From Moniliella sp. 'wahieum' (lineage: Eukaryota): 64,000 nt of DNA. Under the pieces are notes generated by a model. It ran no database searches. It had not been told where the DNA came from and saw only the letters and a list, made by a program, of their open reading frames with translations. This document shows positions 4,300 to 64,000 of the stretch, in pieces (position 1 is the first letter of the stretch; every line of letters starts with the position of its first letter). The DNA is taken from positions 496,001 to 560,000 of the forward strand of contig RSEE01000019.1 in the NCBI GenBank assembly GCA_003971905.1, written 5' to 3'. The translations under genes were made by a program, and so were the position numbers.

Positions 4300-4773
4300 G
4301 TCTCATATCACCTCTTTGGACACTCGCCGCCGCTTGGCTCCACGTCACGTGTCCGCTGCCGCTGCTGCCCCTCAAAAGCACCGCCTAACCCTAACGCCCA
4401 CAGCCAGCCTGGCCGCTCACCCGCCCAACCGGAGCGCCACTGCCTCGCCTGCTGCCCCTCGCACGCTGGCCTCGTCACCGCGCCAACCAAGCAACCTACA
4501 GCAAAATGCTTTTCTACTCGACGCCACCTCCCTTCCTTCCTTGGCTCGGCTCAGCCCCGCCAGCTCATCCCCATCAGGGTTCAATGTTCAACGTTCAACT
4601 CGTTCACGCCCAGCAGGCGGATGGATGTTGCCCAGCAACACCAACCCGACTACTGCATAGACAATGCAATCAATACTAGGATGCAAGTGGGGCAAGAGCA
4701 GGCCGGTCGCCAGAAACGAAATCATGATACAACTGGGGCAAGAGAAACAGGGCAGAAGGTGTGGGACGCAGCG

Positions 4774-7700
4774 CTAGTGAAAAAAGCGAAACAGGGGCAA
4801 CAGGGGCAAAGCAAGAACCGAGTCATAGCACGTGTTGGGCAGCAGAACATTATTACTTCTTGTCGGGGAAGAGGAGGTGGATGTTTGTTTCTGTCGACCC
4901 TTGTCGACGGTCGAAGTGCGGTTGCGCTTGCGAATCACGTCCGACTTGAGCGACAGGGGTCGTACGACCCCATGCAATTTGTAGAACAGCCCACAGGCAT
5001 TGCACAGCGGGTGCCCTTCGGGAGCGCGCCGCCACAAGGGCGTCTTGGTCGTATGGCAGTTGGTACACGTCATTTGGTCCGCCCCTTCCTCCACGGCGAC
5101 TTTGCCTTTGCGCTCGGTGCGCGGCTTGGAACCCGAGGGAGCACGGCGGTGCTTGGACACTACCGGCGCTGGCACCGGCGACGGCGTGGTCACCCCCGTG
5201 TTGGGCGTGCCAGGCTGAGACAACCCCCGCGCGGCCGAGTAGGCTGCTGACTCTTTCTCCCTTCCGGCCAGATTCGCAACACTCAGCCTCGGGCTCCCAT
5301 GAATAGAATCCGTCTCGTCGGGTTCAGCAAACAATGTCCTTCCCACGCTTCCCCGGCCAAGAGTAGGAGTGTGTCCTTGGCACTGGGGTGATTGAGAAGG
5401 GAAGGATCGACCGTCCCCATCTCCGACGGATCCGGGAGCGAATTCGACGAGGTTCTCAGCCGAGCCATGCTCGGGCGAAAGGAGAGAAAGCAGTGTCGAA
5501 GAGGAGTTGGCCTGCATTAACATGCTCGTCAAGCTGGCCAGGTCCGGGACTGTGGCGCCCTGTCCCGACGGATCGGCACACCAGAACGGGATCAGGGGTC
5601 CAGACGGCGTTGTCGCAGCCGTGTGGGCATCACTCGCTCCACTGCCACTAGGACTAGCGCGAGTGCTGGCACTGGTGGATTCCGTGCTAAACCGCCGGTA
5701 GACGAGGCAGAAACGGGCATCGGTGGAAGCGGACCCGACCGGGCTGAGGTGGGCACAGCAACCGGCTGACTCACAGCGGTTGCGGAATAAGGGCGGCCAA
5801 AGCGATTGAGACCGGCGGCGATACGCTGGTCAACAGTGGTGGGAAGATGCCGAAGGGGTCGAGCCGCCTTGTCGATGTGCGTTGTGGAGGCACTCAGGTC
5901 CTCGTCCAAATCCATATCGACCGCTCCGCGGGAACGCTTCCTTGTGCCGGACGCACGCGATTCCGAGGAGGGTTCGGCAAGACCAGGGAGGGAAACATAC
6001 TTTCCCATAGCGTAACTCTGGGCACGCGCATGGTGTCCAGTCCCTACAACAGGAGATGTGACGGGACTGTCTTGGCCAGACAGTGGCGTGTGTGCCACAG
6101 AGGTTTGAGTAGGAGACGTGGCGGAGTAAAGACTGTGATCAAAACTAGTCTTTCGTACCAGACGCGGGAGAAAGTCCCAGTCAGGATCACGGTTGACCGG
6201 CGCCTCGGCAAAGTCGTCTGGGTTGGCACCAGGCACACTGGCCAACAGACGGGGGGGAGCACCGTATGCGACGGCTTCTCTTGATGCCGTCGATGAATCG
6301 CGGGGGTGGAACGAGGCAAAAGGCGCCAAGTTCTCAAACATACTTAGGTCCATCATCCCCATCTCTGTTGATGGGGTTTGTGCATTGTCATCCAAATTGA
6401 GGAGATTACCGGAGAGCCCGGCAGTGCCTTGCCATGCACCATCTCCATAAAAGGGGCTCTGTCCACCAGTGGGTGTAGTGGGGATGATAGGAGATGCAGT
6501 CGAGGTCCGGTGGGTTCGGTCCCGGTCAGTGGGAGATCGTATGTCGGCACGATTGACCTCCATCGCATCCGTGACTACAGCTCGACGGAACTCGGCTCGA
6601 ATGCGCTCTTGGCGTTTTCGGCGTTCCCATTCACCGTCAGATGAATCGTCATCGTCATGTTCGTTGTCAAAACTGGACTCGGGCGCCTTAAAGCCTTCGT
6701 CAAAGCCAGGAAATTGACCAAAGGCAAGGGCAGTCGCCGCAGGAAGCGAAGCACTCATCATGTGGAGGTGCTGTGCGGAGTTGTCGGTTTCGTCGTGGTC
6801 CTTGTCGTGTCCAAGAGTGGCGGTGGAGTCCTTGACACCACTATACCAACGGCGACGAGAACGAGATCGTGCAAACCCGTCGACTGTACCGGTACAACGA
6901 GTGGACAGGGGTCCGATTGAGCGCGAACGGGAGCGGGTGGAGGATGCGTTGGCCCGGGGAACAGACCAGTCTGATGATTGGGGCCCAGTGGGTCGGTGGA
7001 TGGGGGAAAGTGGGACGGGGGCGCCGGGCTTGCGGGCTTGTCTGACTCCGCATGCGACGAAGGCGGGGCCGGGGGGAAAGACAGTTCGGGCACGACGGGC
7101 TGAACCGGCGTCATGTGTGATGATGGCGCAAGCACGGGGGGAGTAACGCCCCGTGAGGACGGCGACTACGTCCGCGCGAGGGAGAACGGGACGTGTTGGA
7201 AGCACGCGCGGTTGAAGGAAAGGAAGTCATGTGCGACGTGGCTGGTGCTGACATAGGGGTGGCACCAGGCAGGTTGAAAGTGAATCCCTGCAGCCCAAAG
7301 AGAGACGGTTGTGGCGTATCACGTTTGCGCAAGTTGAGGTTCATCAGCCGCCAGGTTAAATTCTAAAGGCAGCACGCCACCAAATTACAACAGCGAATTC
7401 GTCAGCGCTCCTGTCTATAGCAGCGAAAGAGTAACACAGGGGGGATTTCGCTACACACCTCGATTCGCATGTTGTTGTCCGCCTCCAATGCCTTGGCCTG
7501 GATCATCCGGTAGATTGCCTGGGGAAGGGCTACGTTTCCCGGACCAGTTATCGGAGTTGTCAAACCGGCTGCAGCGACCAGGTCTGCCATTTCGCCTTGC
7601 TCGATGATGGTACGAAACGCAACCCAGTCAGGCTCACCTGTTGTTTGGGTCGCCCCGGCCAACTTGGCAAGGGAAGCGAACCAACCGTACAGGTCGGGGT

Positions 7701-9353: not shown

Positions 9354-10402
9354 ACGTTCTGGGCCACCGTCCAGCGCATCGTCCTCGCAAGTGAAATGGA
9401 AACGCGCCGCCAGAGAAGCGGTGCGATCGCCACCACCCAGGCTGGGACCGCATTGCATATTTATTGGACAGGAGGATGCAGCGAGTGGATCGGACTCTAA
9501 TACCAGCAGCGCTATATCAGCACATCCCCTATCCATGCGAATACAGTAGCATTCGCATCAACACAAGAAAGCGAGAGAGAAGGGTGCAGCTGTGTGTGGT
9601 TGTTCTTTCGCGGTACCCGAGACGCTCTAATAAAAGGCCCAGCTCGTGTGCAAACCCTCTTCCCTTTTTGATGTATCACTTGCTCTTAAGAAATGCTAAG
9701 CGCTAAGCTCGCATAAAGCCCACAGTTGCCGCATGCATTGCACCAAGAGCTGCATCAACATGTAACAAGGGTGCCATAATTATGCTTCGAATCGGCATGA
9801 TTGGAATCATCGGTGACTAGCACCTGTCATCGATCAGCAACTGTGACATGTGACATGTGACGTGTGATCATCGATCAATGATTGATGATCACCTGGATCA
9901 CCGCGTTGTATTCGTGTCTTGCAACAAAGACATGGACTCCTGTCTTTATATATGCTTTCCAGCCACACTCTCGACCCCCTCGCGAAAATCGATTACCACC
10001 TCTCCGGCTTCAAGCTCTTCAAGCTTCAGGTGAAGCTTCAGGGACCACCGATGGCACCAGGCTTGCCCTATTCCGGACACGCAAGGTGTAATCCATATTA
10101 CTCGGCAGCGCTGTGAAGCTTGAAAAAGGAGTATGTGTAGTGAATTGAGAGACGAGTAATAATAAACGGTCGCCGGGAGACACTTGAGAAGCTAGGGCCT
10201 CTGAGGTCTTCGGATGAAGAAGCTGCCAGTTAATAAGATCATTCTGATTCCAGTTGATTGACCTGTTTGGTGCATGCATTGTCCCAGACCGAGTCAAGAA
10301 TATAGCCGGCAGGGATGTCCACACGAGCATTCCGGTGCTGCGGAGAGGCGGAGGCAAGCTGAGAGGTGGAAGCTGACCGACACACATAGTAAACGTTAAA
10401 CG

Positions 10403-12193
10403 TTAAACCTTGGGTTTTTTCGTCTCGGACTCCGCCGCTTCTTCTCCTCCACCCGCCCGCTTCTTCGCCTCCGCGCTCGTCTTAGCCTGCCCAACCAGTG
10501 GCGGCGGCGGTGCCCCGGCTCTCCAGGTCAACTTGCTAGCCCAGTGGTCCTCGCGCAGGCGAGCCTGGCCTACACCATACAAGTGCTCACGACAGTGAGA
10601 CCAACCGTGGTCCCCTCGCCAAATCCAGGCTGGCCCGTGTGCTTGCGTGGAAGCGGCACCCCCGTTGAAGTCGGGTAATCGTCCCAGACGTGGCCCCGAC
10701 GCTGCAATTCGGGAACAAGCTTATCGACAGCGCGACTTGGGTACCAGGTGTCACGGCATAGGCAAAGTTAAACCCATCCACCCCAGCCTCGGTTACCCAG
10801 CGCTCCAGCGTATCCGCCACCTTTGTCACCGACCCACGCACGACCGGACCCAGTCCTCCCACCGTCAGCTGCTCCGCCACCGCCCGCTTGGTCCACCGGC
10901 CCACCTCGGGCGCATTCTTGGCAAAACCCTCGACGGCAGATTGAATTGCGTTGCCCTTGCTGCCTGGTGGCGCCAGCTCCTCCTCATCGTCATAGCCCGA
11001 CAGATCGATCCCCGTCCATCCACCAAACAGGGCCAGGGCGCCCTCCCCGCTGCCTTGCTCAACCCAAGCCTTGTATTGCTCTTCTGCCTCCTCATCCGTC
11101 TCGGCAACAATGACTGTCAGCAACGCCAGCACCTTGATCGAATCCTCGTCCCGTCCTGCATCTTTGGCTGCCTGCCGTGCTGCATCGACCCGTTTCTTGG
11201 CCAGCTCGGGCTTGTGGGCGGCAATAAAGATGGCCTCGGCGTGTTTTCCAGCAAAGGCCAGACCCGGACCAGAGGAACCCGCTGGAAAATGAGCGGAGTA
11301 CGCTGGGCACTGGGATGAACCAAGTGGGGACCGGGAACGTGAGGGTAGTGCTCACCCTAAGTTAAGATACAGAGGCCAACAGGGTCAGCAAAATTGATCT
11401 ACTATATAGGATCAACAGTATAGCAAGCTGAAACGGAAGATCTCCTGAAAGACATACCCTGTGATTGATCTGGCGTACCCGCTCGGGCCGCGTATAAATT
11501 TGTTAGCCACGTCCAACGCCACAGCATCGTCTGCCCAGCTGCCCTCCCACAGCTTAAAGACCACATCGAGGTACTCTGTTTCCGAGAGAAGGTTTTGATG
11601 TGTCATTTGTTAGATCACGGTACAAAAGAAACAAAAGGAAGTGGGCGCATGACCTCTCATCACGTACCGTGAGCAATTTCGTAGCGCTTCGCATGGAGCT
11701 CATTACTTTCGCTCCCAAAGTTGCGAGCAGCCGAGTCCAGGTAACCCGTGACCACGTTCCATCCCACCCGACCATTGGTCAGATGATCCAGTGTGGAAAA
11801 ACGGCGAGCCAGCGCATACGGGTGCTCAAACGAGGTAGTTGCCGTCACGCCAAAAGTAAGGTTGGACGTGACGTGGGCCATGGCACTGACTGCCAACTGA
11901 GGATCGGTAACAGGGAACTGGGCCCCGGAACGAAGCGCAGCATCGAGAGAGCCGCCGTACACGTCGTACCCTCCCCAGACGTCGGCAAGAAAGAGGCCAT
12001 CAAATTTGCCTCGCTCCAAGAGCTGAGCCAAGTCGGTCCAGTAGCCCAATGTGTCAAAGTTGCTGGACTTATCCCCGTTGGCAGTCCACAGCCCAGGCGA
12101 CTGATGGCCAGCGCAGGACATATCGAACGCATAGAGAAGCCAACGCTTCTCCGACTTGGGGGAGGGGGAAGCAATCGTAGCGGAGGGCGCCAT
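10403..12193 (-). CDS. Flavin-dependent luciferase-like monooxygenase, DszA/NtaA/SnaA family
   Basis: Motifs YWTDLAQLLERGKFDGLFLADV, PYALARRFSTLDHLTNGRVGWNVVTGY, EYLDVVFKLWEGSW and GSVTKVADTLERWVTEAGVDGFN. Probable introns near 11575-11665 and 11355-11455. Ends KKPKV* with the stop at 10403-10405. Confidence 0.93.
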
Positions 12194-12832
12194 TTCGTTG
12201 GTCAGAAGCAGCCGTAAAGCGGAGCAGGTGGTGATTTTATACACGAACTTTCCTGCACTTCATGGAGATAACCTGGCGGGGATCGGTATGGTCCGTGCTA
12301 CAAGCTCGTGCTAAGCGAGATGGACGAATAATATAGGAAAGGCAAGGGAATATAAGGAAGTGACTAACCCTAGGGTATATCAGTGTTGGTCAGATGGGTG
12401 CATGACACTGCGCTTGTGCCAGCCACGCATCAAACGGCCTTCACGATTGCGCCATCCCCAAAGATGTTGTGATCCGACAGCTATTATATGATTCTGGTCG
12501 ACACGGTTTTGATGCAGTGAATTACCGGTATGCCCGCATGTTCGGCACTTCAACGTCGGCAACCGTTCCTTACGTGTCTATTGATTCCGATCGATGACGC
12601 GGATGACGAGATAGGCCTCACCTCGCTGGTCTCTACAAGTGTCACTCGCACTTCGCTCACCTGTCACTTCTAGTCGCTCGCATTCCTATCTATATACTAC
12701 CGGGAAACGGCTTGGAGTCCATCAATGTGAAAAAGGTGCATTTTCACATGTACATAGCAGCAACATAACCGGATAATTCTTGTTAGCGGCTCGCAAGAAA
12801 GGATATGGGGCCCCACACTTCGAAGATCCCCC

Positions 12833-14000: not shown

Positions 14001-14982
14001 AAGGCGCTGCTGACAGTGAGTAGCTCGGGCGGGGCAAGGCGAACGAAAAGGGGGATCGGGTGGCCAGTGCATGGGCTGGGGAGTAGCGGCCGGGGTGGAG
14101 CGTGCGATCAAGGGAGCCAGCATGGTCACGGCCGTGGAGTTGGAGGTGGGGAAGATGACCGTTCAGAGTGCAGACGAGAAGGACGGATAACTGAGGGGGC
14201 AACTGTACTCGCGCCAAGCCAGCCAAGCAAGCCGCCACGCAGCCCGCTGGAAGCGCCAGGAACATGGGCGCCAGCGCAGGCCAGCCCCGCCTCGATAACG
14301 GCTCCTGGTCTTGGGCACGGCCTGGCACGGCGCCAGTTGTGCATTATCAGTACCGACCGTCCCGGCTGTACCGCCCCTCCCGTCTTGGCTGATATCTGGT
14401 TGAATAATGTTAGCGTGAACAATTCTGCTGCCGTTTCAACTTGCATACTTCCTGTTCGAGCTGCCGAAATTCCCTCAACTTGAACGTGAGAAGCATGTCC
14501 TTCCCTACTTGCACCGATAACGGACAACCCCACTTCTGCATATGGTGCCTGCCATAGCAAGCCACAGCTAACACCTCCAAGGGGGCGTTGAACGAGGTGA
14601 ACGAGGAGGTTGAAGTGCTAGCGTTTCAACCTTCAACGTTCATGAAGAGTGCCTTGGGGAGCTGTCGTCTACACGCCACAGATGCGAGCACTCTAAAGTA
14701 CGAATGTAAATGTATGAGAGTGCACGAAGACAGGTACTCAGGATGCTGGCATCATTCAAATGGTGCGCTTTAAGGCAGGAAAGTGCTCGCTAGACAGTGG
14801 ACAAGAAACTCAAACAGAAAGAAGCGCCATACCATGGGGCAGGACACCATTTTATCGCAAAACGTGTCTATGACCAAAGTCATCTTCCATCAACTTGAAT
14901 GGTGGCTCTAAAGATGGCCAAGCGAAACAATCACTTGGGCAGTGCAACGGTCGAGAGTGCACGACCAAAGGAGGGTGTCCTA

Positions 14983-16035: not shown

Positions 16036-16542
16036 CAGGCGTCCGATGACCCTCAGAGGCGTTCGGGCTCATGCAGTGTGCGCCCGGCTAAGCTTTCCGC
16101 CGCCGAGACGCTTGCTTGCGAAGAGTGGATGAGCTCTTGAGTTTTTAGCTTGAGGCCTCTGATTGGGCTCTGACGCTCCCGAATGAGTATCATCACGTGA
16201 TGGGGGCATCCTATCAGCTAGCGATTGTCACGGTCCGCTTAGTAATCACATAATCGTCTCGCCCGACCCTTGCAGGCTACAGCTATCGACTATCCCAGAT
16301 CGATAAGTAGATTTGCAATTTGAAAGGGACACATCGGATACCGTGTATCACATGAGACGTGGGTCATCACATGTCCCATGCCATGATCATGTGATCACCG
16401 ATCATCACTCATCGCTCATCGATCACCCTAGCATCCCCTACCCCAGTGGCCCAGGAGGCATGACGCATTACATAAGCACCCATCGCCCGCTCAGCTCCAC
16501 ATGTGCCCCTCCCTAGACGCGCTGCTCATCGCTCCAGCCGCC

Positions 16543-21123: not shown

Positions 21124-22098
21124 ATGGTCGATGACCCTCTATCATTTTATCAGGGCTCGCGCATCTCATCTTCTAACCATATCTTCAGTCCTCATCTATG
21201 CTCATCTTTCTCTCCGCCTTTCCCTACCGCCCATCCCGCTTGCGGCTCTTCGTACGTCTACTCACCGACGTATCCGTTGCTCTCCTATCCGCCCTTAGCG
21301 GTGAGTCTGAAAGATGAAATGAGTGTGGGCGGGGAAAGGCCCAGGGCACCGTTGACTTTGAAGATGAGTTTCGTTTCTCCAACAAAGGAAGAAGAGACGA
21401 GCGGGACGAACTTGGCCTTCAGTAACTTGCTTGTACCTCGTTTCCTCAAACCAGAGGATGCATGTGCCACAAGGCATCACTGTAGTATAGGCACTACTCT
21501 TTGTTTTTCTTCTTGGGCATGGCGAGATTATTGTAATGCACCGCCGTGCGTAACCCTTCTTGGCTCTACTGGCCATAAAAAATGGCAACTCCGACTCTGC
21601 TCCTGGGTCAGACTCATTACGTCTGTACGATGTGCAAATCCATGCCGGTCCTCGACCCTCCTAACCTCCAGAATGCGTAAATGGAATGGAAGCAAATGCC
21701 TCGACTCCAAAAATTCATATTTTTTGCACTCACAACTCACACCTTTCGCCTTGGAATTGTACGGCTTGCGTCTATATCATTTCACCGGGTGTCCATCCCT
21801 CCTCTTTATAGATGCACACATGCGTCTCGAAACTGTTTTTCGAAACCTTGGAACCCTCGCAGCCAGGTCCAATAAAGTATACAAGAAACACTGGCGTGAA
21901 CATAGGAGGATCGCGAGTAGTGCTTTGCTAGTCGTCCGGCAGAGCCAGGTAGCATCTGAGAATGAGGTTGCAGCATGGCTAATCGAAATTTCTTGCGCAC
22001 AATCTTGCACAGCCTTGCCCACCTTGAATTTGTACGTAGTCCTCACATATCTATCCGGAACCTTGTTACCAGCATTTTCGATTAGCTATGAGGTTTAG
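21124..22098 (+). CDS. Hypothetical protein (orphan)
   Basis: 324-codon open frame with a possible intron near 21252-21298 (GTACGT...CTCAC...TAG). No recognisable motif. Confidence 0.35.
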   Translation: MVDDPLSFYQGSRISSSNHIFSPHLCSSFSPPFPTAHPACGSSYVYSPTYPLLSYPPLAVSLKDEMSVGGERPRAPLTLKMSFVSPTKEEETSGTNLAFSNLLVPRFLKPEDACATRHHCSIGTTLCFSSWAWRDYCNAPPCVTLLGSTGHKKWQLRLCSWVRLITSVRCANPCRSSTLLTSRMRKWNGSKCLDSKNSYFLHSQLTPFALELYGLRLYHFTGCPSLLFIDAHMRLETVFRNLGTLAARSNKVYKKHWREHRRIASSALLVVRQSQVASENEVAAWLIEISCAQSCTALPTLNLYVVLTYLSGTLLPAFSISYEV

Positions 22099-24520: not shown

Positions 24521-26487
24521 ATGAGACGACGATATGATCTGGCGGGTCCTGATGCCCCTCCGATGGAATTGCAACAGTGTGGTGTGGTGGTAGCGGGGTT
24601 TAGAGAGAAAGCCAAGTAACAACGCCTATCGTGACATTTCCTTGATCCAGCCACCAGAGAGGTTGCTCCTGCGGATGTGACTGGGTATTATAGAACTTGG
24701 GTGGGCAAAGGCTTCGCCCCTGAGGCCTGACAATTAATAACAGAAGACCTTAGAGCTGGTCCACCTTATACTCGGACCGCCCAGAGTAGCTCAAACGTAG
24801 AAGGTAGGACTCCCACCCCCTGCAGTGGTGGCTGTTGAGCCACTGGGTGGCTCGTGCGTTGGTCAACGTCCCTTCAGTTCCTCCTCAGATCTAGGTGTTT
24901 CCGTTTGTCGTCTCTTCTCGGCTGTTTTTCCTTTTTTCCGCAGCTTTTAGCCCCTGGTGGGCGACTCGCTGCTTGGTGCACGATGTTCCTCTGTAGGTGT
25001 TCTTGTTGGCTTAGACCACCACCTCCACCAGTGATTGCATCGCCCTCGAGGACCATCAGCTCCAGAGGCCTCATTCAGTGGGCGGCGGCGGCAGGGGGGC
25101 TCTGGTTAGATGTGGCTGCGTAAGCACTTCTATGTGCACTAAAACGAAAAGATGAAGTAAGGCATCTTAAGAGAAGCGGAGGAACCCAAGGATTGGGTGT
25201 AGACCTCTGGAATGCAGAGCAATGCATGGCGGTGGTGGTGGTTAAACGTTAAACGTTAAGGGATAAGGTCTAAGCTCTAAGCTTTTATATACCTCACCTA
25301 GAGGAGACAGGGGGTTTGAACAAGCCGGAGTATACAATGAGGCTTCGGAGGTCGAAAATAAGGGGCAAGGATGATAATCGAGATAAGGCGCCTTGGCCTA
25401 TGTACGGGACCGCGGGTCCCAACAGTATCAACACACGGCGCAACCCTCCCTCACACTGACGCGGCCGTGGTGGTCCTCTGGGTGTCCAAGAAGCGATCGG
25501 ACTGTGGGCAACGAAGCCTGTTGGATGCAACATGTTGGGGACTACCCGACTTGTTAATAGCAACAGACTTCATGTTGAGATGTGTGAGAAGCTGTATAGG
25601 GAGATGGGAATGGGACTGGAATGGGCTGGAATGGCACGTTGCCTTTAAGCCAGCCTCCACATAACACCTGCAACCCTTTTAACGAGCGCTCAGATAGATG
25701 GATTGATGGTGATGCGTGTTTTTGTCAGGGGCTGGAGGGATCTCGATCCGGTTGATCAAGCAAGTTGGGGCACGTGCCCTGCATGGCGATATGCGTGCGT
25801 GGCCAGCGACCGGTGACCAGGTGACTAGTGACGCATCGCGAAACTGCCAGCAGCGCAGTGCACCACTCCCACACAGCCACCGCGCGCTGCTTCAGCTTCA
25901 CCCTTCGCCCAGCCAGCTTTTCACCCCCCGCCCAATTGCAACTACTCGCCAGCAGCTTCTTACCACCGTCGATCCATTATCAGCCCGTTGTCAACGCGTC
26001 CGGCCTCAGGCCTCATGCCTGGAACCAGGCCCCAGCCCCATCATTTCGCCATCACAGGCCCCAGCCCTAGGGCCTCACACTGGCTTTCGCGTCGCGCGGC
26101 GCCACAGTTGTTATAATCGTCGGCCCGTCTTTGTTTGGGTCTGCCTTCGTGCCCCATTCCTCCCCCTCTGTCTCCTATCCACAGTTTGCACGACCCCACG
26201 GGTAGTCGACCCTCAGTCCTCATGCCTCTGATCGAACGCAGTACCCCTCTCTGGTCACGATGACCTCGATGACCTTGATGGTGCCACAAGAGAAAGCCGT
26301 CAGATCTCAGATCGCACAGCAGACGCGTCTGTCTCACCCGAGGCGAAGTTTGCTCCAGGAAGCATCGAACGGCTGCAGTATATCATCTATCATCCCCCTC
26401 TCATATTTCCCTGTCCTGCTATCTTTCGACCTTTCTCATTCTCCCTCCTATCCTTTCTCCCGACCTTTTTGCTCCATTCGCGCTGCC

Positions 26488-36844: not shown

Positions 36845-37720
36845 CTGGCGGCCTGGCGGGCGTGGACGAGGAACAAGGCCGAGGCTCGCCGGGCAGCCCG
36901 AGACAGAACAGAGGCAGAGCAGACGCAGCCGATGAGGCGATGGACAGGTGTGAACGGGAAGGAAGCCTTCCATGTCACGGCCGGCGGGCAGGGGTGCCTG
37001 TGACCATATGCTAGGAGGCGCCGATTCGCGGTGGGAGCGATGGGAGGGGGTGGGAGGAGGTGCGGATGGGGACGGGGACGGCTTGGCGGGGATGAGGTGG
37101 CTCAGACATGATGATCTGGGCGGAGTGCCTGTCGGCGGCAGGCTACAGCAGTGAGTGTAGACGGGCCAAGGCGCGTGATGGTGGTTGGCCGCCTGGAGAT
37201 GGGAGCGATGGGAGGGCCCGAGGTGGTGAAGTGGACGGCTGTGGACGCCGACGCTGTGCCCAGGAGCGCCATCTCTGGACTCGGCACTCGGTACGCACAG
37301 AGATGGGGGTGACCATCATGCATCACATCCCATTGCGCCCCATGAAATCTCAAATCCAACCCACCCATTCTGCCGCAACACAATGGGCCTCTGCCTGCTC
37401 CTGCCGCGTACTGCCTGCGGCTGACCCTACTGGAACGGTTGCCCCGGCCCACGCACGACCTGTTATCCACCCAGTCCCTCCCGATATGCTTACCCTGTCC
37501 AAGCGCCCACACAAAAGACACAGTCACCACGAGAAACGCTAGAGTGGGTCCGCAGTATGTACCACCCCTTCCAGCCCCAGCCCACAGTCACATGCATCAC
37601 ACTACATCCGCCAGCCACAGAACAAACACACATATGCACACCAACAAATGGGCATCAATGAATGGATGGAGCAGGCACAGAGCCCTGGTCGGCCTCAGGG
37701 TTGTTCCTCGGCGTTCAGTT

Positions 37721-44756: not shown

Positions 44757-47237
44757 GTGTGAATCCTATACCCCAACAAAGAGCTACCACAGTCAACCCC
44801 GTCATCCCCCCTGCCCGTCATCAACGATCGGCCTCGCGTCAATACCGACAAGGGCCATTTCATCTCCTCAGATGTAATACGTTGTTATATCTCAACACCT
44901 TTTTACCTTCTGTACCCTTTCCCATCTGTGGACTTTTACATTTATTCTCGTTTGCTTTCACTCTCCCCTCTCCTTGTTTTCTTTTCGTATCTCGTCTCGC
45001 TCTGACCTGAAGCTTGACAAGCCTCAGCCTGAGGACTTTTGTTCGCTGATTCTACCACCATCTTCAGCAACTCTCACGAAGAGCAACAGAGGCATGGTTA
45101 CCATGCCTTTGTGTCTGTGTTTTGCCCTTAAGCCTCAAGCCAAACCTTGGGGGGAATGTGGGTTGTGTGGCCTTAATTCCTCTCAAGCCTTTTTCGAGAT
45201 CGGACATTTGCTCCAAGGCACTCAACGCTGCCCTCTTGATGATCATTTCCTCACGATGTTTTTCACGTTTTCTTGCCAACGAGATCATGACGATCGATGA
45301 TGATTCGTGATACCAAACCGTATAGAAGGCACCATATACTCACATCAGAGTGTCACCGACAAAAATATACAGTCTCGATAGAAGATCGCATACTAGCCTA
45401 TGTGATGGTCATATCGATGACAGAAGTCCCAGACTGTACGTCCGACCACAAAAGCGAGTTCCACACCCAAATCTCTGCAGGTTGTCCGATTGATTCGATC
45501 ACTTGTGCTATATATACCTGTCATCCAATCTTCCTTTCTCTCCCATTCTGTTCCCGCAAAACACAGAAACTCCACATCTGTACTGCTGTCTGTTTACCCC
45601 TCCCATGCATCCATCATCACACCCTACCCTCCATCATAGCGTTACATAGTAGCCTATACACGTAATAATAGTTCGGACTTTTGGCTTCCCCCCGACGGAG
45701 CAACAGAGGGGGGGTTATAACCATAACCTCAAGAGCCGAGAACTGTCATCGTTGGGAACGACAGCAGTATGATGTGCATGATGCGCTACCCTCACAACAC
45801 GCTTCTGGCCAACTAGTTAATATTAGTCGCGTATACCCTTAGGCTCAGCGCTCATTATTCGCATCCGCATCCTCTCGCGCGCTTAACTTTTTGGTTTGGG
45901 ATGAAGGAATGGCAGGTGCTACAGGGTCCTGTGTTGACATGTGACATGTGACAGGCCGGCAGTAACTTAACTAGCTAGTAACTAACGCCTTTCGCCTTCT
46001 GATGGGGTAGGTGTATAAGCTCTGCGTATCAGCGCGTGAGATCGAAGAGAGCCGACAGCAAACAGTGGATGTGCGAGCCGGTCAGGCAATGGGCCTGTTA
46101 CGCGTCTGATGTATTATGGCCCTGTTCGGTTTGCAAACCCATGGATACGAAGGCAGGGGCGGAGGAACCGCAACGGTAGGCCGCCCACGTGCTACCTGCT
46201 TCCTAATGAAGCTGGTGAGATCGGTGAGATCTGAGATCAAAGTGAGTGCTATGCTTATGCTTATGCGCGTTGCGCGATGCATGATGCACAATGGATGACT
46301 GGTGATTTGTCACCTGGGAGTGTTCCTATTTCCTATTTAGTAGTTAGTAGTTAGTAGGCACTGTAGGGTACTGCCGATCCGTCTCGGGCGATCTGCACGC
46401 TGACTGGTGCTGGGCTAGTCTGGAAGCCCGCTGGAGCTTATCTTGGCGGTGCGCGTGTGTGTGCGCGGGTGCGTGGTGTGCATCGGCGTGGGAGGAGTAT
46501 CAGTGCACCACGGGCATGGGGCCACACTGTCCAACGTCCCTCCCTAAGCCCCTGCCGCACACCTAGGCCGAGTGGAGCCAGTGGCGCCACCAGGCATGGC
46601 ACGGCAGCATGACAGCCCGGGAGCACGGCAGCAGGCGGCACACGGCAGCTCACGGCGGGCTGGCGTGTGCATATGCCCCGGATGCGATGGATGGAACGGG
46701 GCCAGTGTGTTCGATGGTGCCTTGGCATTGAGACCTGAAGCTGGAGGCTTGAAGCTGGCCGGAGGCCGCAGTCAGACGCGCAGCCGATCATCTGCTGGCA
46801 CGTCAGGCCTCAGGCCTCAGGGCACACCCTTCCGTCCTTCCCGTTCAAGGTAGGCTAGGCCCTCGGGCGGAGTCCTGCTACTACATGCACTACAGCAGCC
46901 TACACCAACTCTCTGAATGGCATCCGCGAGATCAATATTCAATGAGATCATCTTAGGCCTAGGCATTCGGCCTCGCAGCCCCTTCAGGCATCATGCATCA
47001 TGCGCACCGGTCACCAGCTCCCCAGCCGCGGACGCTCAGTCTGGCCCAGCCAGCCCTTTGCCCTCTGCGTCGATCGCCGCTTGCTATCATCAACGTCCAA
47101 CCTCCAGCCCGTCCGCCTTGCTGCAATCTCCACCGCTGGCTTCGGTGTTCACTTTTCCCCTCCTCCGCCTTTCCATCTGCCCTCTCCCTGCCCACAACCT
47201 CAGTCTTGCACATCCGCCTACCACACGCTCTTTCCTC

Positions 47238-51127: not shown

Positions 51128-52148
51128 AGGGCTGACTGATATTGAGGTGGACGATGCCGATGGGTTGGACGTTGGTGGGCCAACGCGAGCCTGTGCTTGC
51201 ATTTTTTTTTCTTTACCGCCCGAATCCTTCTCCGAATCTCAACTGAATGCCCTGAGCCATATTCACGCACCACCACCTTCCTTTTAACTCCCACCATCCC
51301 TTTGCCAGATTTCCCTGAGCCGAGATGGTCTCCCGGCCGTTGCAATCGTACGCTGATGACTTGCCCGACTAGCTCAATTCGATGGAAAACCCGCTGTGCC
51401 ACTGAGTACTGAGTGGGCAAAGTGGCCCATATACGATGAGGTACATCTGCAACAGTTGGCTGAGCTGAGAAGCAAGCTGAAATGGGGGTGCCTCGAAGGG
51501 AACGTCTTGTGACGCGTGACGCGTGACGCGTGACGGAAGGAGAGGGTGGAGTACGGAGTGGGAATCGCGCCCAAGGCGGCGGCAGTGGAGTGCCTAAGAG
51601 GGCTCGAGGTGGAAACCGAAAGTGCAGAGTGTGCTTGTGTCACATGACAGCGGCCAGTGCCCGTCGGCTCCAATCTCCCTCGGATGTGAACTGGCGGCAT
51701 CCAGGGCATACATGGCGGTTGAGCGCGGTAAAGCCTCTCGATCTCGATCTCAAATGGTGCATGTGATCACTGATCGATGGTCGATCATCGACTCGTGTCT
51801 CACAGCGTTGCAAGTGGAGGACGTAACCAATTGAGGCTGGAAGAAGTTGTGCGTCACCGGGTCACCTGTGCATGGAACATGGATTGACCTTCACTTCGAG
51901 CTCCACCTACCAACCGTCATCGACGTTGAACGTTCAACTGAACGTTCAACGTCCACGCCCAACATGTGTTGTCAACGTTCACAATGAACTGAACTGAAGG
52001 GGCTGAAGCTGCTGAAGGTGAAGCGCTGCAGCGGGCGTACGCGTAAGATCTAACAGCGTAAGCACTGAGGCTGCCGGCTTACCGCTTAAACGTTTAAACC
52101 CCAGCCCACTACCAAATCTGAATCTGACGTCACTTTAGCCCAGCGGGT

Positions 52149-52178: not shown

Positions 52179-53140
52179 TTGGGCAGCGACGGATACGTGT
52201 TTGTTGGAGTGTGGTGGCATGTGGCACCACTTGGTGTGATGGCTGGATCGGCCATGTCGCTGGCAAGCGGAACTGGCTATAGAGCTCCGCAACTCGCGCG
52301 CTCCGGATTGGTTACCGTCGCGCCCTCGTTCCCCTCCTTCCTCTTCTCCCTGTTGCATTGAAGGTTGGACTAGCGTCAGGAGCTTACAAGAAGCTATCTC
52401 TGAATGTTCCCACCCTGCACAGTGCAATCGTCCTTAGCTTGGTAGCGTAGCTACTTCTCAGTTAACGGACAACCGCGGTTCTGGGCTCTCATTGGTGTGA
52501 CCGATTCATCGCGCTCACCCATTGATCGCCTAGTCTAGTGCTTCGCCCTAGCCCCCAATCTTTCAGTGTTGAATGTTGGTGGGACTCGGTTGTACACCAC
52601 TTGCTCGCCAGGCCAAAGTGGCTCGAGCGGGATGCAAACCAAATTTGCGGACTGCCTGATGATATCTATCACAGGCTCTGCTCCACACACCACCCACAAG
52701 CGCTAGCACCAGGCCCAGCAGGCAGCCGCTACCCAGCACAGTAACCGCACGCACCAGCCCCGTCTTCTTCGCCTCCAGTCGGGAGGTGATCGGCGTCGGT
52801 CGCACTGCATCAGCCCTCTCGATGTCGGTGCCCTTCTCAGCTTAGCCTGAGCGTAGCCGCAGCGCCCGAACGCACCCAACCCATCACAGCGCCCCTACGG
52901 ACTGTTTCTGCGTTGTTCATGTTGTTTGAAGATGATGTCGATGATGGGGCGAGCGCCCCAAGTGGGTACAGCCGCGCTCTCTCAGCCCTGGACCTGAGCC
53001 CGAAGAGGTCTCTCTCAGCACGCCCACAGCTCACTCAGTAGTCACTGGATCCGCATACTGTGGCCGAACATCCCCGTCTCCAAAATCAAACCGTAAACGG
53101 CAAGCCTGGGACCAGCTTGCTGTTGCGTCCGTGCGCCTCG

Positions 53141-53314: not shown

Positions 53315-54385
<1,071 letters not shown>

Positions 54386-61407: not shown

Positions 61408-64000
61408 TCCTTCGAGTCTTTCTGGGGATGATGGGGAAGCGGAAAGTAAGTACCACTGATTAGGGCAACCACGCGTGCCACGAGTTACTCACCGAGTACC
61501 GACGGTGCTGGGTAGGAAGCCCAAGGCAATGGGTAGGCCAAAGGAGAACCAGGAGTGATGCCACACGGCGCCGTGCAGGACCAGCGTATGCGGACAACAA
61601 CAGACTGGCCGCCTGAGGCTGCGGGTGTTTATTGCGCCTTACAACCCTATCCTGATTAGGTCACGTGATCGGGGAGTGCGTTGTGCCAGTATGTGCTGTC
61701 TAATTTAATTTCACGCACATTGGCCGCGTTCACCGGTCACCGGTCACCCACAGCATACAGCAACACGTCAAAATCACAATCGGCCAGGCGCACGAAAAGA
61801 GCAACTAAAATAGCGAACGCACTGGACACTTGACGTATGGTGGTTATCAACATCATCAGCCTTGCTACTTCAGAATGCTCGCAGAGGCCTCTGGCTCTTG
61901 AGTGTCATTTCGTCTTGGTGATGTGGTGTGATATATAGCCTTGTTTTCATTTTGGAAGGGTTATTATATATGCCCACTTTAAGTATTTTCCCGGTACGCT
62001 CCGCAGTAGCATATTGCAATGCCTCCGCACACGAGAGGAAACAACCTGTACATCAGATTCTGCCTGGCTGTGTCCGACACACACTCTCCGCCGTCCGACG
62101 TTGACAAAAACCGGTATATGTACGTTTTTTGGAAAGAGTTTTAGGGCTCTTCTGATGGAAGGAAAACCCTCCGTCCGGAAAACCAGCTGCACCGTCACTT
62201 CAGGATGGACACCAATCGATGATGGAGGAGCGGTACCAGCCTCCCATTCGATATACGTGAAAAGTTTTGTGGGCCTCTATGCTTGGAAACGCCATCGGAT
62301 GAGTGGCAAGGCAATATGGGGGAAGGGCGCACTGCGACTGACCATGCAGCTTCAATGCGCTTATTCGCATTGTGAGACCATTGCGGTATCTGAAGCTGTC
62401 GCATGTCAAGTGAGATATGAGAGGCCAGCGAGTACACTTGTCCCAAAAGCACCACACATAGGAGACTACTATGCCGGTGAAGAGCTGTTCAATTTTGTGG
62501 AGGGGGTATTGGTCCAACTTCAATAACCTATCATTCAACCTTCGACCTCCTGACAAAAGTGAATGCAAGCAACAGCTATACACCGGCAGCACTTAGTGTG
62601 CAGTGTGTTGTATGTTCATACACCATTTACAGAGAAGGAGCCTAAGCCAAGTTGGAAAAAGAAACGCTGCACTTATGAACTCGGCTCGCTTATCCACCGA
62701 GAAGGTGCTGCTCGCTCGTGTTGACAACTAACAAGTAGGAGACGAGCAGAGTTGTCAGCAAGTCGGAGGGCCCTCTCTGTGGTTCCCGACATTCGCTTCC
62801 GAAGGAATGTGGTGTGAGTGGATACAAATGAGCACAGCAGACACATGTGATGAGGGAATGAATCATTTTGATCCATTTTGAGACTGCTTTCCTCAGAGCA
62901 ACTATAGTAGTAAAGAGTCTCCAGTGCTGTCAACATCTTTTGTTAACCGTCGTCTCGTGGTGGTATAATCCCCCCGCGTGCCAGCATGACCAAGGAGGAA
63001 GGATGGCTCTTGAGTGCGTCCGTTTGGTGCTTGGCGTTCTCCAAGAGCCCATGCAGCTGCTTCTCCTGGCTCTGGCTTCTTGTGTATACCATGTTGCAAG
63101 ATTAATCGTCATAGCTCAGCACATGAAGCACGATAAGCGCTAAGCGTGCTGCACTACGTGTTGCATGATGGTCAAGCAAGCCATTAAGCTTGAAGCTTGA
63201 AGATGCATGTTGCTCGAGCAAAAAGTAGACTCTACTGGTCGTCCTTGGTTGGTGCTGGGTATTGCGACTGATGTGTCTTGCATAGGCCAGTGGCGGGGCG
63301 AGCAGAGCTGCGACCACGCAGGCAGGGTCTTTCAAGTGTCGTTGCCGTATCGCCAGCGCAGCCAGGCCCAGCACTGGCCCAGCCCCCTTGTCCAGCATTG
63401 GCCTTGAAGCTTGACATACGTGACATGTCAAGGTGCTTGCGATGCCTGAAGCTTGAAGAGCGACGAGGTGCCTCCGGACAACATGCAGCTGCCCCATGCG
63501 TCAATTCCCGGTGGCGGCAAGATATGGGATTCCCCACACAGGGGTGGCGCCTGCGGGTAGCCGAAGCAGGCGCGTGGCCAGTGTGTTGCGCTGGTGCCCT
63601 GCGGTGCCCCCTTTGGGCCTGGGATTGGCGTGACGCGTGATGCGTGGCCGCGTGACCGGGTGACCCCACCGAGACTGCATGCCAGATGCGCCGCATTTCC
63701 GCGGCTCGCATGGCAAGCGAAGGCTGCGGAGGTGGGGGCAGCAGCGCCGCATCCCCCCCTGCGCCGCACCCGCCCTGCTCCCTCTGCATCCCCAGCAGCC
63801 CCGCTCGGCCAGCGACCATCGACCATCGCCTGCCCAGCGCCAAGTGCTGCGACTTCCTTCCGCCGACCTATACCCCCCCGTGTCTTGTGTCGGTCATCCC
63901 ATAGCCTCCTCTCGCATGAGCTTGCCGTCTCCTCCGCCAGCGCTCCCGCGCTCCCCCCGCCCCGCACGTACTCACGCCAGGTGTTGCTTGGTGCCGTTCC

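What the first reader, a model, noticed from the sequence alone, without database searches (positions are those of the whole stretch)
4586..63660. Window-wide family of tandemly duplicated TNA-centred palindromic heptamers: symmetry conserved, sequence not
Seen: non-coding DNA repeatedly contains head-to-tail copies of 7-mers of the form abT-N-Ab'a'. Examples are GTTCAAC x2 (4586, 40752, 41604), GCTAAGC x2 (9695), TGTGACA x2 (9842, 45940), GTTAAAC x2 (10395, 25241), GGTGACC x2 (40879), CCTCAGG x2 (42217, 46808), ACTGAGT x2 (51401), CGTGACG x3 (51515), GGTCACC x2 (61735) and CTTGAAG x2 (63189). The junction is always TNA-[4-bp palindrome]-TNA. Twelve of the 16 possible spacers occur (CATG, ACGT, CGCG, CCGG, GGCC, AGCT, GCGC, GTAC, TCGA, CTAG, TGCA, GATC), and I did not notice the four all-A/T ones. 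By eye I count about 60 such 10-mers, almost all outside recognised genes, against a rough chance expectation of about 10 for the whole window; coding DNA was not scanned exhaustively. Inference: a single transcription factor would not normally need a spacer to be self-complementary while ignoring its sequence. This looks more like a generative DNA process or a structure-based code. Candidates are 7-bp target-site-duplication footprints from a transposase or nuclease that prefers symmetric TNA sites, hairpin-assisted slippage, or shape recognition. I know no named feature that matches.
Basis: partly seen in the sequence, partly recalled or inferred. Interest (0 to 1): 0.9.

Follow-up and report, generated by a model that had tools for sequence, protein, structure and literature searches.

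The report
Transposon excision scars littering fungal promoters
The doubled palindromic 7-letter words are real, and they are most likely scars left each time a cut-and-paste jumping gene landed on a TNA-centred 7-base site and later left, with DNA repair creating the mirror symmetry.

Summary
T.A-[4-bp palindrome]-T.A occurs 70 times against 8.4±2.9 in dinucleotide shuffles, and 56 against 2.4 when both N are the same base. No other triplet class or spacer length exceeds 1.8-fold.

The true unit is not a duplicated palindromic heptamer. It is a 12-mer, xyTNA·y'x'·xyTNA, or its mirror form: 35+29 copies against 0.2 expected each. Non-palindromic TNA-centred heptamers also occur, either doubled directly or separated by 1, 2 or 5 nucleotides that are the reverse complement of the adjacent heptamer end.

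This matches excision footprints of a cut-and-paste transposon that makes 7-bp target-site duplications at nnTNAnn and leaves hairpin-capped flanks. Opening each hairpin off-centre gives a palindromic overhang (P nucleotides), and one overhang is kept. The symmetry is therefore created by repair, not selected.

The 55 loci avoid coding DNA and show a steady decay series. The window comes from an Ustilaginomycotina fungus.

The transposon itself was not seen. No genome, reads or close relatives were available. The mechanism is a known kind; the element and the scar density are unusual.

The parts
4586..4599 (.). Footprint, class AB (palindromic heptamer GTTCAAC x2), with degenerate copies on both sides
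9695..9708 (.). Footprint, class AB (GCTAAGC x2)
9827..9836 (.). Bare 10-mer TCA-TCGA-TCA with no flank match (weak; this class is 9 observed vs 2.0 expected)
9842..9860 (.). Array AB+A with three TGA at period 7 (TGTGACA type); right flank is CG, so the inferred target is TGTGACG
9866..9877 (.). Footprint, class A (GATCA-TC-GATCA)
10008..10042 (.). Hot spot with a chain of events: CTTCAAG+CT+CTTCAAG, then CTTCA-AG-CTTCAGG, then CTTCAGG+TGAAG+CTTCAGG (5 templated nt); the non-palindromic target CTTCAGG is kept intact twice
10114..10123 (.). Bare 10-mer TGA-AGCT-TGA (weak)
10390..10408 (.). Array B+AB (GTTAAAC type, three TAA)
12593..12608 (.). Whole non-palindromic heptamer GATGACG + CG (reverse complement of its end) + GATGACG
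14633..14642 (.). Bare 10-mer TCA-ACGT-TCA (weak)
16416..16425 (.). Bare 10-mer TCA-TCGA-TCA, part of a three-TCA period-7 run at 16408-16425 with one mismatch
21728..21741 (.). Plain tandem of the non-palindromic TNA-centred heptamer ACTCACA (class T)
24719..24730 (.). Footprint, class A (CCTGA-GG-CCTGA)
25241..25259 (.). Array AB+A (GTTAAAC type)
25269..25282 (.). Plain tandem of the non-palindromic heptamer TCTAAGC (class T)
25822..25831 (.). Bare 10-mer TGA-CTAG-TGA (weak)
26004..26015 (.). Footprint, class A (CCTCA-GG-CCTCA)
26259..26274 (.). Non-palindromic heptamer GATGACC + TC + GATGACC (2 templated nt)
26300..26311 (.). Footprint, class B (TCAGA-TC-TCAGA)
26381..26394 (.). Plain tandem of the non-palindromic heptamer TATCATC (class T)
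30408..30419 (.). Footprint, class A (TCTGA-GA-TCTGA)
30525..30536 (.). Footprint, class A (TGTGA-CA-TGTGA)
30878..30889 (.). Footprint, class B (TAATC-GA-TAATC)
30940..30951 (.). Footprint, class A (ATTCA-AT-ATTCA)
31149..31160 (.). Footprint, class B (TGAGC-GC-TGAGC)
31260..31308 (.). Hot spot with a chain: CTTTAGG+C+CTTTAGG, then CTTGAAC+GT+CTTGAAC+CTTGAAC, then a class A 12-mer CTTCA-AG-CTTCA
32394..32405 (.). Footprint, class A (GATGA-TC-GATGA)
37314..37325 (.). Footprint, class A (CATCA-TG-CATCA)
40503..40514 (.). Footprint, class A (GATGA-TC-GATGA)
40743..40765 (.). GTTCAAC+GT+GTTCAAC followed by a third GTTCAAC (H+P2+H and AB)
40879..40892 (.). Footprint, class AB (GGTGACC x2)
40897..40908 (.). 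Footprint, class A (GGTGA-CC-GGTGA), 4 nt after the previous one
41604..41629 (.). Array AB+A (GTTCAAC type) followed by TCA-TTAA-TCA
42217..42230 (.). Footprint, class AB (CCTCAGG x2)
45008..45017 (.). Bare 10-mer TGA-AGCT-TGA (weak)
45843..45854 (.). Footprint, class A (GCTCA-GC-GCTCA)
45935..45953 (.). Array B+AB (TGTGACA type)
46214..46236 (.). Non-palindromic GGTGAGA+TC+GGTGAGA, then class B TGAGA-TC-TGAGA
46342..46355 (.). Plain 7-mer tandem (TTAGTAG x3 array at 46337-46357). It is TNA-centred in one register only, so membership is doubtful
46803..46821 (.). Array B+AB (CCTCAGG type)
46932..46943 (.). Footprint, class B (TCAAT-AT-TCAAT)
46989..47002 (.). Footprint, class AB (CATCATG x2)
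51401..51414 (.). Footprint, class AB (ACTGAGT x2)
51510..51535 (.). Array B+AB+AB with four TGA at period 7 (CGTGACG type)
51932..51950 (.). GTTCAAC+TGAAC+GTTCAAC (5 templated nt), within a longer palindromic chain at 51925-51950
51972..51981 (.). Bare 10-mer TCA-ACGT-TCA (weak)
52002..52017 (.). Non-palindromic GCTGAAG+CT+GCTGAAG
52044..52053 (.). Bare 10-mer TAA-GATC-TAA (weak)
52931..52946 (.). Non-palindromic GATGATG+TC+GATGATG
61730..61748 (.). Array B+AB (GGTCACC type)
63134..63145 (.). Footprint, class B (TAAGC-GC-TAAGC)
63189..63202 (.). Footprint, class AB (CTTGAAG x2)
63403..63414 (.). Footprint, class A (CTTGA-AG-CTTGA)
63447..63458 (.). Footprint, class B (TGAAG-CT-TGAAG)
63629..63640 (.). 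Footprint, class A (CGTGA-CG-CGTGA)

Best explanation
These are excision footprints of a cut-and-paste DNA transposon that was not seen in this window. The proposed steps are below.

1. Inferred: the element inserts at a 7-bp site xyTNAzw. T at position 3 and A at position 5 are nearly obligatory, N is mostly C or G, and the flanks are only weakly biased. Insertion duplicates the 7 bp.
2. Inferred from the pattern and from the known chemistry of hAT, MULE, Transib and RAG enzymes: on excision each flank is left as a hairpin whose tip lies exactly at the end of the duplicated heptamer.
3. Inferred: host enzymes nick each hairpin 2 (or 3) nt from the tip. Each end then carries a self-complementary 4-nt overhang: zw·w'z' on the left end and y'x'·xy on the right end.
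4. Shown as a pattern: end joining keeps one overhang and discards the other. This gives xyTNA·y'x'xy·TNAzw (class A) or xyTNA·zww'z'·TNAzw (class B). Both are 14 bp long, both have TNA-[4-bp palindrome]-TNA with the same N, and in each the outer flank matches on one side only.
5. If the target happens to be palindromic, the two overhangs are cohesive and the product is the full doubled palindromic heptamer (class AB).
6. Other opening positions give the rarer products: a plain tandem heptamer (no added nt), and heptamer + 1, 2 or 5 templated nt + heptamer.
7. Repeated visits to the same site, or slippage, build the 3-4-copy arrays and the chains at hot spots.

The scars accumulate in non-coding DNA, mainly in intergenic regions that contain promoters, and then decay by point mutation.
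For: Specificity. Only TNA triplets separated by a 4-bp palindrome are enriched (56 vs 2.6). All other triplet classes and spacer lengths are at most 1.8x where more than one match was expected.

The unit is a 12-mer. xyTNA-y'x'-xyTNA occurs 35 times on one strand and 29 on the other, against 0.2 expected each. Period-7 extension beyond the 10-mer is all-or-none at 2 nt. Left extension: 0 nt in 17 arrays, 1 nt in 3, 2 nt in 19. Right extension: 0 nt in 22, 1 nt in 4, 2 nt in 15. There are 46 arrays in all.

Counts per TNA pair: class A 18, class B 12, class AB 17, plain tandem 6. Each is expected at 0.2 or less. A and B are roughly equal, as a symmetric mechanism predicts.

The target need not be palindromic. 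A whole TNA-centred heptamer, then 2 nt, then the same heptamer occurs 10 times. In 8 of these the 2 nt are the reverse complement of an adjacent heptamer end, against 0.02 expected, and 6 of those 8 heptamers are non-palindromic. There are also 2 cases with 5 templated nt against 0.00 expected, and 1 case with 1 templated nt.

Chains at 10008-10042 and 31260-31308 keep the same non-palindromic target intact through successive events.

Single palindromic TNA heptamers number 258 against 194 expected. The excess of about 64 is roughly what the doubled forms contribute, so there is no pool of palindromic target sites.

Decay series for the 12-mer's 9 constraints: 9 of 9 met, 64 sites (expected 0.3); 8 of 9 met, 61 (expected 10.1); 7 of 9 met, 187 (expected 114.5). 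The single failures are spread over all 9 constraints. This is what a continuing neutral mutational process gives.

Location. 0 of 46 arrays lie in Pfam-matched coding segments (7.4 expected), and 3 of 46 lie in coding-like DNA (20.2 expected).

Literature.
- hAT, MULE, Transib and RAG form flank hairpins that host enzymes open and end joining repairs (PMC5499845, passages read).
- Ac/Ds footprints in yeasts carry P-nucleotide palindromes, and a few products dominate: 35 and 18 of 128 clones (PMC5873905, passages read).
- Basidiomycete transposons with 7-bp duplications exist: hAT7 and Kyakuja (PMC12730594, sections 12 and 19 read).
Against: No transposon was seen. There are 0 pairs of TNA-centred 7-bp repeats enclosing terminal inverted repeats (0 candidates; the 4 candidates are at chance level). 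None of the 211 stop-to-stop ORFs of at least 110 aa has a transposase Pfam domain.

No empty, occupied or one-copy allele could be examined. No genome is held, no sequencing run was listed, and no relative was found in the metagenome contigs.

The density is very high for scars: about 46 strong loci in 64 kb.

About a third of the loci show several events at one site, which requires strong hot spots or slippage.

Full palindromic doublets are 8 of 38 loci, more than the 1 in 16 expected for random flanks. The cohesive-overhang explanation for this excess is an inference.

The same heptamer type recurs within some promoters, for example the CTTGAAG type five times across the 63134-63458 and 10008-10123 regions. 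This also fits binding sites.

The coding/non-coding mask is crude. It is a self-trained codon score built from 3,427 codons.
Confidence: 0.78

Rival explanations
1. A break-and-repair or replication process with no mobile element. For example, a nuclease makes 7-nt staggered cuts centred on TNA, followed by fill-in with turn-around synthesis. Alternatively, hairpin-assisted slippage occurs at short palindromes.
For: No element was found in the window. Several events often occur at one site. A staggered cut followed by fill-in would also duplicate 7 bp.
Against: Fill-in of a staggered cut gives plain tandems, which are the minority: 6 pairs against 47 in classes A, B and AB.

The dominant 14-bp products, in which 2 nt are lost on one side and 2 templated nt are gained on the other, follow directly from two off-centre-opened hairpins. 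They do not follow from fill-in.

Slippage needs an existing repeat and would give whole-unit periodicity. The observed 12-mers have one unmatched flank.

Palindromes of other lengths and other centres are not enriched.

From recall, no endogenous nuclease with a 7-nt stagger is known.
Confidence: 0.1
2. They are cis-regulatory elements: clustered binding sites for dimeric factors in promoters, kept by selection.
For: They lie almost only in non-coding DNA. By my reading of the orientation of Pfam-matched ORFs, most lie in intergenic regions that hold a gene's 5' end. The same word recurs within some promoters. Some coincide with known-looking sites; the resemblance of GAAGCTTC to a heat-shock element is recalled, not tested.
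Against: Seventeen different strand-collapsed 10-mers occur in 46 arrays, with only mild preferences. What is constant is a rule, that the spacer is the reverse complement of the adjacent flank, and no protein reads such a rule. The rule also holds for non-palindromic heptamers with 2 or 5 extra nt. Degenerate copies are about as common as perfect ones, and the failures are spread evenly, so there is no sign of purifying selection.
Confidence: 0.06
3. Assembly or sequencing artefact.
For: None specific. Reads could not be examined (none was listed).
Against: An artefact would not avoid coding DNA (0 of 46 arrays against 7.4 expected). It would not obey the TNA rule and the reverse-complement rule. 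It would not show a mutational decay series.
Confidence: 0.01

Closest known systems
Ac/Ds (hAT) excision footprints with P nucleotides, under the hairpin model of Coen et al. 1986. Data for C. albicans and S. cerevisiae are in PMC5873905 (passages read). Ascot-1 of Ascobolus (Colot et al. 1998) was seen only as a reference-list entry in PMC5499845.
   Same: The duplicated target is kept at the empty site. Short palindromic insertions are templated by the adjacent flank. A few stereotyped products dominate. Repair is by end joining in a fungus.
   Different: Ac/Ds duplicates 8 bp. Its palindromes are centred on the complement of the base next to the element, giving an odd palindrome with a 1-nt offset (PMC5873905). 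Here the duplication is 7 bp and the palindromes are even and centred exactly on the heptamer end. The 1-nt-offset products are 1 against 30 class A and B pairs.
Coding-end hairpins and P nucleotides in V(D)J recombination, and flank hairpins of Transib and the MULE Muta1 (PMC5499845, passages read).
   Same: A hairpin forms on the flanking DNA and is opened off-centre by host enzymes, giving self-complementary overhangs. That the typical overhang is 4 nt, from opening 2 nt off the tip, is recalled from the Artemis literature and does not come from any call.
   Different: RAG and Transib duplicate 5 bp, and MULEs usually 8-10 bp (recalled). Muta1 excision in yeast is mostly precise (PMC5499845). 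None of these is known for a TNA-centred 7-bp target.
hAT7 (Pucciniales) and Kyakuja (KDZ group, Agaricomycotina), which are basidiomycete DNA transposons that make 7-bp duplications (PMC12730594, sections 12 and 19 read; supplement searched).
   Same: 7-bp target-site duplication in Basidiomycota. hAT relatives are known to form flank hairpins.
   Different: Their target sequences could not be read: they are in a figure that is not held, and the supplementary table gives none. Neither family is reported from Ustilaginomycotina in the sections read. No transposase of either kind is in the window. The cleavage chemistry of Kyakuja is unknown to me.
Galileo (P superfamily, Drosophila), with a 7-bp duplication of palindromic consensus GTAGTAC (PMC2775673, passages read).
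   Same: A 7-bp duplication with an odd-palindromic target consensus, as expected for a symmetric transposase dimer.
   Different: The centre is ANT-like (GTA-G-TAC), not TNA. The host is an insect. P elements cut without flank hairpins (recalled), so they would not give these palindromic additions.

Membership tests
Hairpin-type cut-and-paste excision footprints (P-nucleotide footprints) | Both copies of the target-site duplication, or most of each, remain side by side at the empty site | tested here: met
   Exact tandems of TNA-centred heptamers: 23 pairs against 0.17 expected. This includes 6 class T pairs, at least 4 of them clearly non-palindromic loci.
Hairpin-type cut-and-paste excision footprints (P-nucleotide footprints) | Extra nucleotides at the joint are the reverse complement of the immediately adjacent flank | tested here: met
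   8 of 10 two-nucleotide spacers between repeated TNA-centred heptamers obey this rule (0.02 expected). So do 2 five-nucleotide spacers (0.00 expected) and 1 one-nucleotide spacer. Class A and B 12-mers: 35+29 against 0.2 each.
Hairpin-type cut-and-paste excision footprints (P-nucleotide footprints) | A resident element with matching target-site duplications and a transposase exists in the genome | tested here: inconclusive
   None in this 64-kb window. The rest of the genome is not held.
Hairpin-type cut-and-paste excision footprints (P-nucleotide footprints) | Empty, occupied and scarred alleles segregate among strains or sister species | not testable with these tools
   No run was listed. 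No relative was found in metagenome contigs. The nearest named proteins are only 56-58% identical.
Canonical hAT (Ac-like) | 8-bp target-site duplication | tested here: not met
   The period of the TNA repeats is 7: 50 pairs at distance 7 against 7 at distance 8 for nnTNA words.
Canonical hAT (Ac-like) | [quoted passage not shown] | tested here: not met
   One-nucleotide-offset classes: 0 and 1 observed, against 30 class A and B pairs. The feature is as described in PMC5873905.
hAT7 / Kyakuja (7-bp-duplicating basidiomycete transposons) | 7-bp target-site duplication | tested here: met
   The family property is from PMC12730594, sections 12 and 19.
hAT7 / Kyakuja (7-bp-duplicating basidiomycete transposons) | hAT or KDZ transposase, and the characteristic termini (Kyakuja: 5'-CA..TG-3', no inverted repeats) | tested here: inconclusive
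   No such Pfam domain in 211 ORFs of the window. No element ends are available to compare.
Microsatellite / minisatellite slippage | Whole-unit periodicity whatever the unit sequence | tested here: not met
   Most loci are 12-mers with one unmatched flank. Enrichment is confined to TNA-centred units with templated spacers.
Transcription-factor binding-site cluster | A conserved recognition sequence | tested here: not met
   17 different 10-mers occur among 46 arrays, and 14 of the 16 palindromic spacers are used.

The most novel reading that the evidence does not exclude
The scars are not passive. Each class A or B scar creates a perfect palindromic heptamer, which would be the ideal site for a symmetric transposase dimer. 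Promoters would then become self-reinforcing landing pads that grow into arrays, so the element, or a domesticated nuclease derived from it, would continually write new palindromic words into promoters and supply raw material for dimeric transcription-factor sites. Under this reading, the excess of full palindromic doublets (8 of 38 loci against 1 in 16 expected), the multi-event hot spots, and the recurrence of one word within a promoter would all reflect this feedback rather than chance or slippage.
Probability: 0.12. Interest if true: 0.85.

Novelty: new member of a known kind. Interest (0 to 1): 0.6.

Why it matters
If this reading is right, the genome carries a dense and unusually legible record of cut-and-paste transposition. 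There are about 46 strong scars in 64 kb, roughly one per 0.5-0.8 kb of non-coding DNA.

Because the repair is so stereotyped, each scar reveals three things: the original 7-bp target, the hairpin-opening position, and which overhang was kept. From one assembly one could therefore measure target preference, visit rate, local hot spots and the end-joining signature of a wild fungus. One could also ask how much promoter sequence turnover is due to transposon excision; here it may rival all other small insertions.

The result also predicts an as yet unseen element in an Ustilaginomycotina fungus, with a 7-bp nnTNAnn duplication and exact-border flank hairpins.

For the scan itself, it turns an apparent 'structure-based code' into a known mechanism.

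Tried and rejected
- Whole-genome search: no genome is held for this window.
- Sequencing runs for strain polymorphism: none was listed.
- Relatives in metagenome contigs, using the GMC-oxidoreductase ORF as query: 225 pattern matches, none confirmed. I did not use the second scan, because the protein searches showed no relative closer than 64% identity.
- Earlier findings of this scan: nothing for this genome, its look-alikes or the motif. The word searches returned bacterial heptamer hairpin repeats and unrelated excision scars, which do not bear on this window.
- Resident element in the window: 4 chance-level candidates, of which only one is TNA-centred and lies inside the arrays, and 0 candidates. 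The inverted repeat at 19791-19856 / 25005-25059 has no matching duplication at its ends.
- A 3-bp TNA duplication plus two element-end nucleotides on each side: rejected. The spacer varies with the flank and is not constant (14 spacer types), and the outer flank matches it.
- A 5-bp duplication (abTNA) plus 2 P nucleotides: rejected. Whole non-palindromic 7-mers are repeated, and added nucleotides never come unambiguously from the TNA side.
- A 1- or 2-nt offset hairpin, as in Hermes or Ac: rejected on paper, because it does not give palindromic spacers. The offset classes count 0 and 1.
- Palindromic-target preference as the source of the symmetry: rejected by the one-sided flank matches and by the lack of an excess of single palindromic heptamers.
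- Literature: six searches found no paper describing genome-wide TNA-centred 7-bp footprints. This holds only for the library searched.

Full report
THE WINDOW

The window is nuclear DNA of a fungus with 56.7% G+C. No tRNA genes were found. Its genes are interrupted and ordinary: Sec7, a GATA factor, Sec5, phosphoglucomutase, Vps4, a GMC oxidoreductase, succinyl-CoA ligase beta, GAPDH, NDUFA5 and ribosomal protein L4. The nearest named proteins are from Ustilaginomycotina. Sec5 is 58% identical to Tilletiaria anomala and about 52% to other smut-related yeasts. Phosphoglucomutase is 56% identical to Jaminaea and its relatives. No whole genome is held for this window.

All 15 cited positions carry the stated doubled heptamers. 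There are 35 exact tandem 7-mers. Of these, 21 are palindromic in some rotation and 20 of those have TNA at the centre. Tandem 8-mers number 3.

The 10-mer T.A-[4-bp palindrome]-T.A occurs 70 times, against 8.4±2.9 (max 17) in 200 dinucleotide shuffles. The same frame with a non-palindromic spacer is at expectation: 134 against 130.5.

The internal control is sharper. I compared all triplet classes (ANT, CNG, GNC, TNA, other), repeated across palindromic or non-palindromic spacers of 2, 4, 6 or 8 nt. Only 'TNA, 4 nt, palindromic' stands out, at 56 against 2.6. Everything else is at most 1.8-fold where more than one match was expected.

In non-coding-like DNA alone the count is 52 against 1.4, and only 3 lie in the coding-like remainder. 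Fourteen of the 16 palindromic spacers occur, not twelve.

WHAT THE UNIT REALLY IS

I merged the 56 same-N 10-mers into 46 arrays and asked how far the 7-bp periodicity runs beyond each end. The answer is all-or-none at 2 nt. Left extension is 0 nt in 17 arrays, 1 nt in 3 and 2 nt in 19. Right extension is 0 nt in 22, 1 nt in 4 and 2 nt in 15. Most arrays extend on one side only. Point-mutation decay of a 14-mer would not give this pattern.

The recurrent object is therefore a 12-mer, xyTNA·y'x'·xyTNA, or its mirror TNAzw·w'z'·TNAzw. It occurs 35 and 29 times, against 0.2 expected each. Single palindromic TNA heptamers number 258 against 194 expected, an excess no larger than the doubled forms account for. 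So there is no reservoir of palindromic sites waiting to be doubled; the symmetry appears together with the duplication.

THE DECISIVE CLASSES

Identical nnTNA words are also enriched at a distance of 9: 14 and 19 against about 3 expected. Listing them shows whole TNA-centred heptamers repeated around a dinucleotide. Of 10 such cases, 8 have a dinucleotide that is the reverse complement of the adjacent heptamer end, against 0.02 expected. Six of those eight heptamers are not palindromic: GATGACG, GATGACC, CTTGAAC, GGTGAGA, GCTGAAG and GATGATG.

Two further cases carry five templated nucleotides (CTTCAGG+TGAAG+CTTCAGG and GTTCAAC+TGAAC+GTTCAAC; 0.00 expected), and one case carries one. Plain tandems of non-palindromic TNA-centred heptamers also occur: 6 pairs against 0.2 expected.

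These classes show three things. The duplicated unit is a 7-bp word centred on TNA. That word need not be symmetric. The added bases are copied, in reverse complement, from the neighbouring end.

THE MECHANISM THAT FITS

A 7-bp direct duplication that brackets short templated palindromes is the signature of a transposon that has inserted, making the duplication, and then left through hairpin-capped flanks. This chemistry is established for hAT, MULE, Transib and RAG, with host enzymes opening the hairpins and end joining closing the gap (PMC5499845, passages). Ac/Ds footprints in Candida albicans and S. cerevisiae show exactly such P-nucleotide palindromes, with a few dominant products (PMC5873905, passages).

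Suppose each hairpin tip lies at the very end of the heptamer xyTNAzw and is nicked 2 nt away. The left end then carries the overhang zw·w'z' and the right end carries y'x'·xy. Keeping one overhang and losing the other gives xyTNA·y'x'xy·TNAzw or xyTNA·zww'z'·TNAzw.

Both products are 14 bp long and have TNA-[4-bp palindrome]-TNA with the same N. In each, the outer flank matches on one side only. This is what is observed: per TNA pair, class A 18, class B 12, both (AB) 17, plain tandem 6, and 1-nt-offset forms 0 and 1. Per locus the counts are A 18, B 12 and AB 8, out of 38.

Because position 3 is T and position 5 is A, opening at 3 nt gives the same product as opening at 2 nt. Opening at 4 nt or more gives the complementary-N perfect palindromes, which are also in excess: 9 against about 2. 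A palindromic target gives cohesive overhangs and the full doubled palindrome. That is my inference for why class AB exceeds 1 in 16.

The steps from 'hairpin' onward are inferred from the pattern. No enzyme or element was observed.

ALTERNATIVES EXAMINED

- A 3-bp TNA duplication plus element-end nucleotides fails, because the spacer follows the flank rather than being constant.
- A 5-bp duplication fails, because whole non-palindromic 7-mers repeat.
- An Ac-like offset hairpin does not give even palindromes, and its predicted products are absent.
- A preference for palindromic targets fails on the one-sided matches.
- Slippage fails on the same ground.
- A transcription-factor code fails because 17 different 10-mers share only a copying rule.

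BEHAVIOUR AS A MUTATIONAL PROCESS

Sites that meet 9, 8 and 7 of the 12-mer's nine constraints number 64, 61 and 187. The expectations are 0.3, 10.1 and 114.5, so the excesses are about 64, 51 and 72. The single failures are spread over all nine constraints. Roughly equal excesses at each step are what a steady input with neutral decay gives. A recent burst or purifying selection would give a different pattern.

The reconstructed targets show only a mild bias: S at positions 1 and 7, and N mostly C or G, 40 of 46.

LOCATION

None of the 46 arrays lies in a Pfam-matched coding segment (7.4 expected), and 3 lie in coding-like DNA (20.2 expected). The mask is a crude self-trained codon score.

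Judged by the orientation of the Pfam-matched ORFs, the loci cluster in intergenic regions that hold a 5' gene end. Examples are 9.2-10.6 kb, 30.5-31.3 kb, 40.5-42.2 kb, 44.8-46.9 kb and 51.1-52.9 kb. The two clearest 3'-to-3' regions, 28.2-28.7 kb and 54.4-55.8 kb, have none, although 32394 probably lies in such a region. This promoter bias is my reading and not a measured result.

Several loci are chains of events on one target: 10008-10042, 31260-31308, 40743-40908 and 51925-51981.

WHAT IS MISSING

- No element is present in the window.
- No reads, no close relatives and no earlier notes were available. Insertion/excision polymorphism, the direct test, could therefore not be made.

COMPARISON WITH WHAT IS KNOWN

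The kind is known: P-nucleotide excision footprints. The particulars do not match canonical hAT, which has an 8-bp duplication and palindromes centred on the complement of the adjacent base (PMC5873905).

Basidiomycete elements with 7-bp duplications exist: hAT7 in rusts and Kyakuja in mushrooms (PMC12730594, sections 12 and 19). Their target sequences could not be read; they are in a figure that is not held, and the supplement gives none.

Galileo of Drosophila shows that a 7-bp duplication can have an odd-palindromic consensus, GTAGTAC (PMC2775673), but with a different centre and, from recall, a different cleavage chemistry.

Six literature searches found no description of a genome strewn with TNA-centred 7-bp scars.

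VERDICT

The best explanation is hairpin-type excision footprints of an unseen 7-bp-duplicating transposon, with confidence about 0.78. It is a new member of a known kind. It is notable for how dense and how legible the scars are.

Noticed in passing
19763-19870 (+), 25000-25075 (-), 31861-31898 (-): A repeat of about 65-100 nt (CTGATGGTCCTCGAG..GATGCAATC..GGTGGTGG..TCTAAG.CAA) is present three times. Two copies form an inverted pair about 5.1-5.2 kb apart around ORFs with no Pfam match. No target duplication is visible at the ends. It could be a promoter element or a decayed mobile element.
   Followed up: partly
9697, 10390, 25243, 30878, 52044, 63134: All six A/T-centred arrays read TAA on the + strand and none reads TTA, while C and G centres are 20 and 20. 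This is about p=0.03 by a two-sided sign test and is unexplained.
   Followed up: no
47961-48214: A 116-nt unit repeated 2.1 times, with nested GCTGCTTCT 9-mers, lies at the 3' end of the ORF 46917-48068, which has no Pfam match, and runs past its stop.
   Followed up: no
52149-52176 and 53140-53171: Perfect or near-perfect 10-nt tandem repeats (GGGCACTGGC x2.8 and GCAGCTCTCA x3.2) lie upstream of the GAPDH gene. They are unrelated to the TNA rule.
   Followed up: no
whole window: Five-mer + 2 templated nt + five-mer structures with non-TNA words are mildly in excess: together 23 against about 6.5 expected in the 'other' classes, some of which are shifted registers of the arrays. The same process may occasionally use sites without T..A.
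   Followed up: partly
40808-40856: The promoter region upstream of the GMC oxidoreductase holds TCACGTGA and CACGTGTCACGTGT. These are G-box/E-box-like words (resemblance recalled) lying next to the scars. The second is a doubled heptamer centred on GTC, the only palindromic one of 21 that is not TNA-centred.
   Followed up: no
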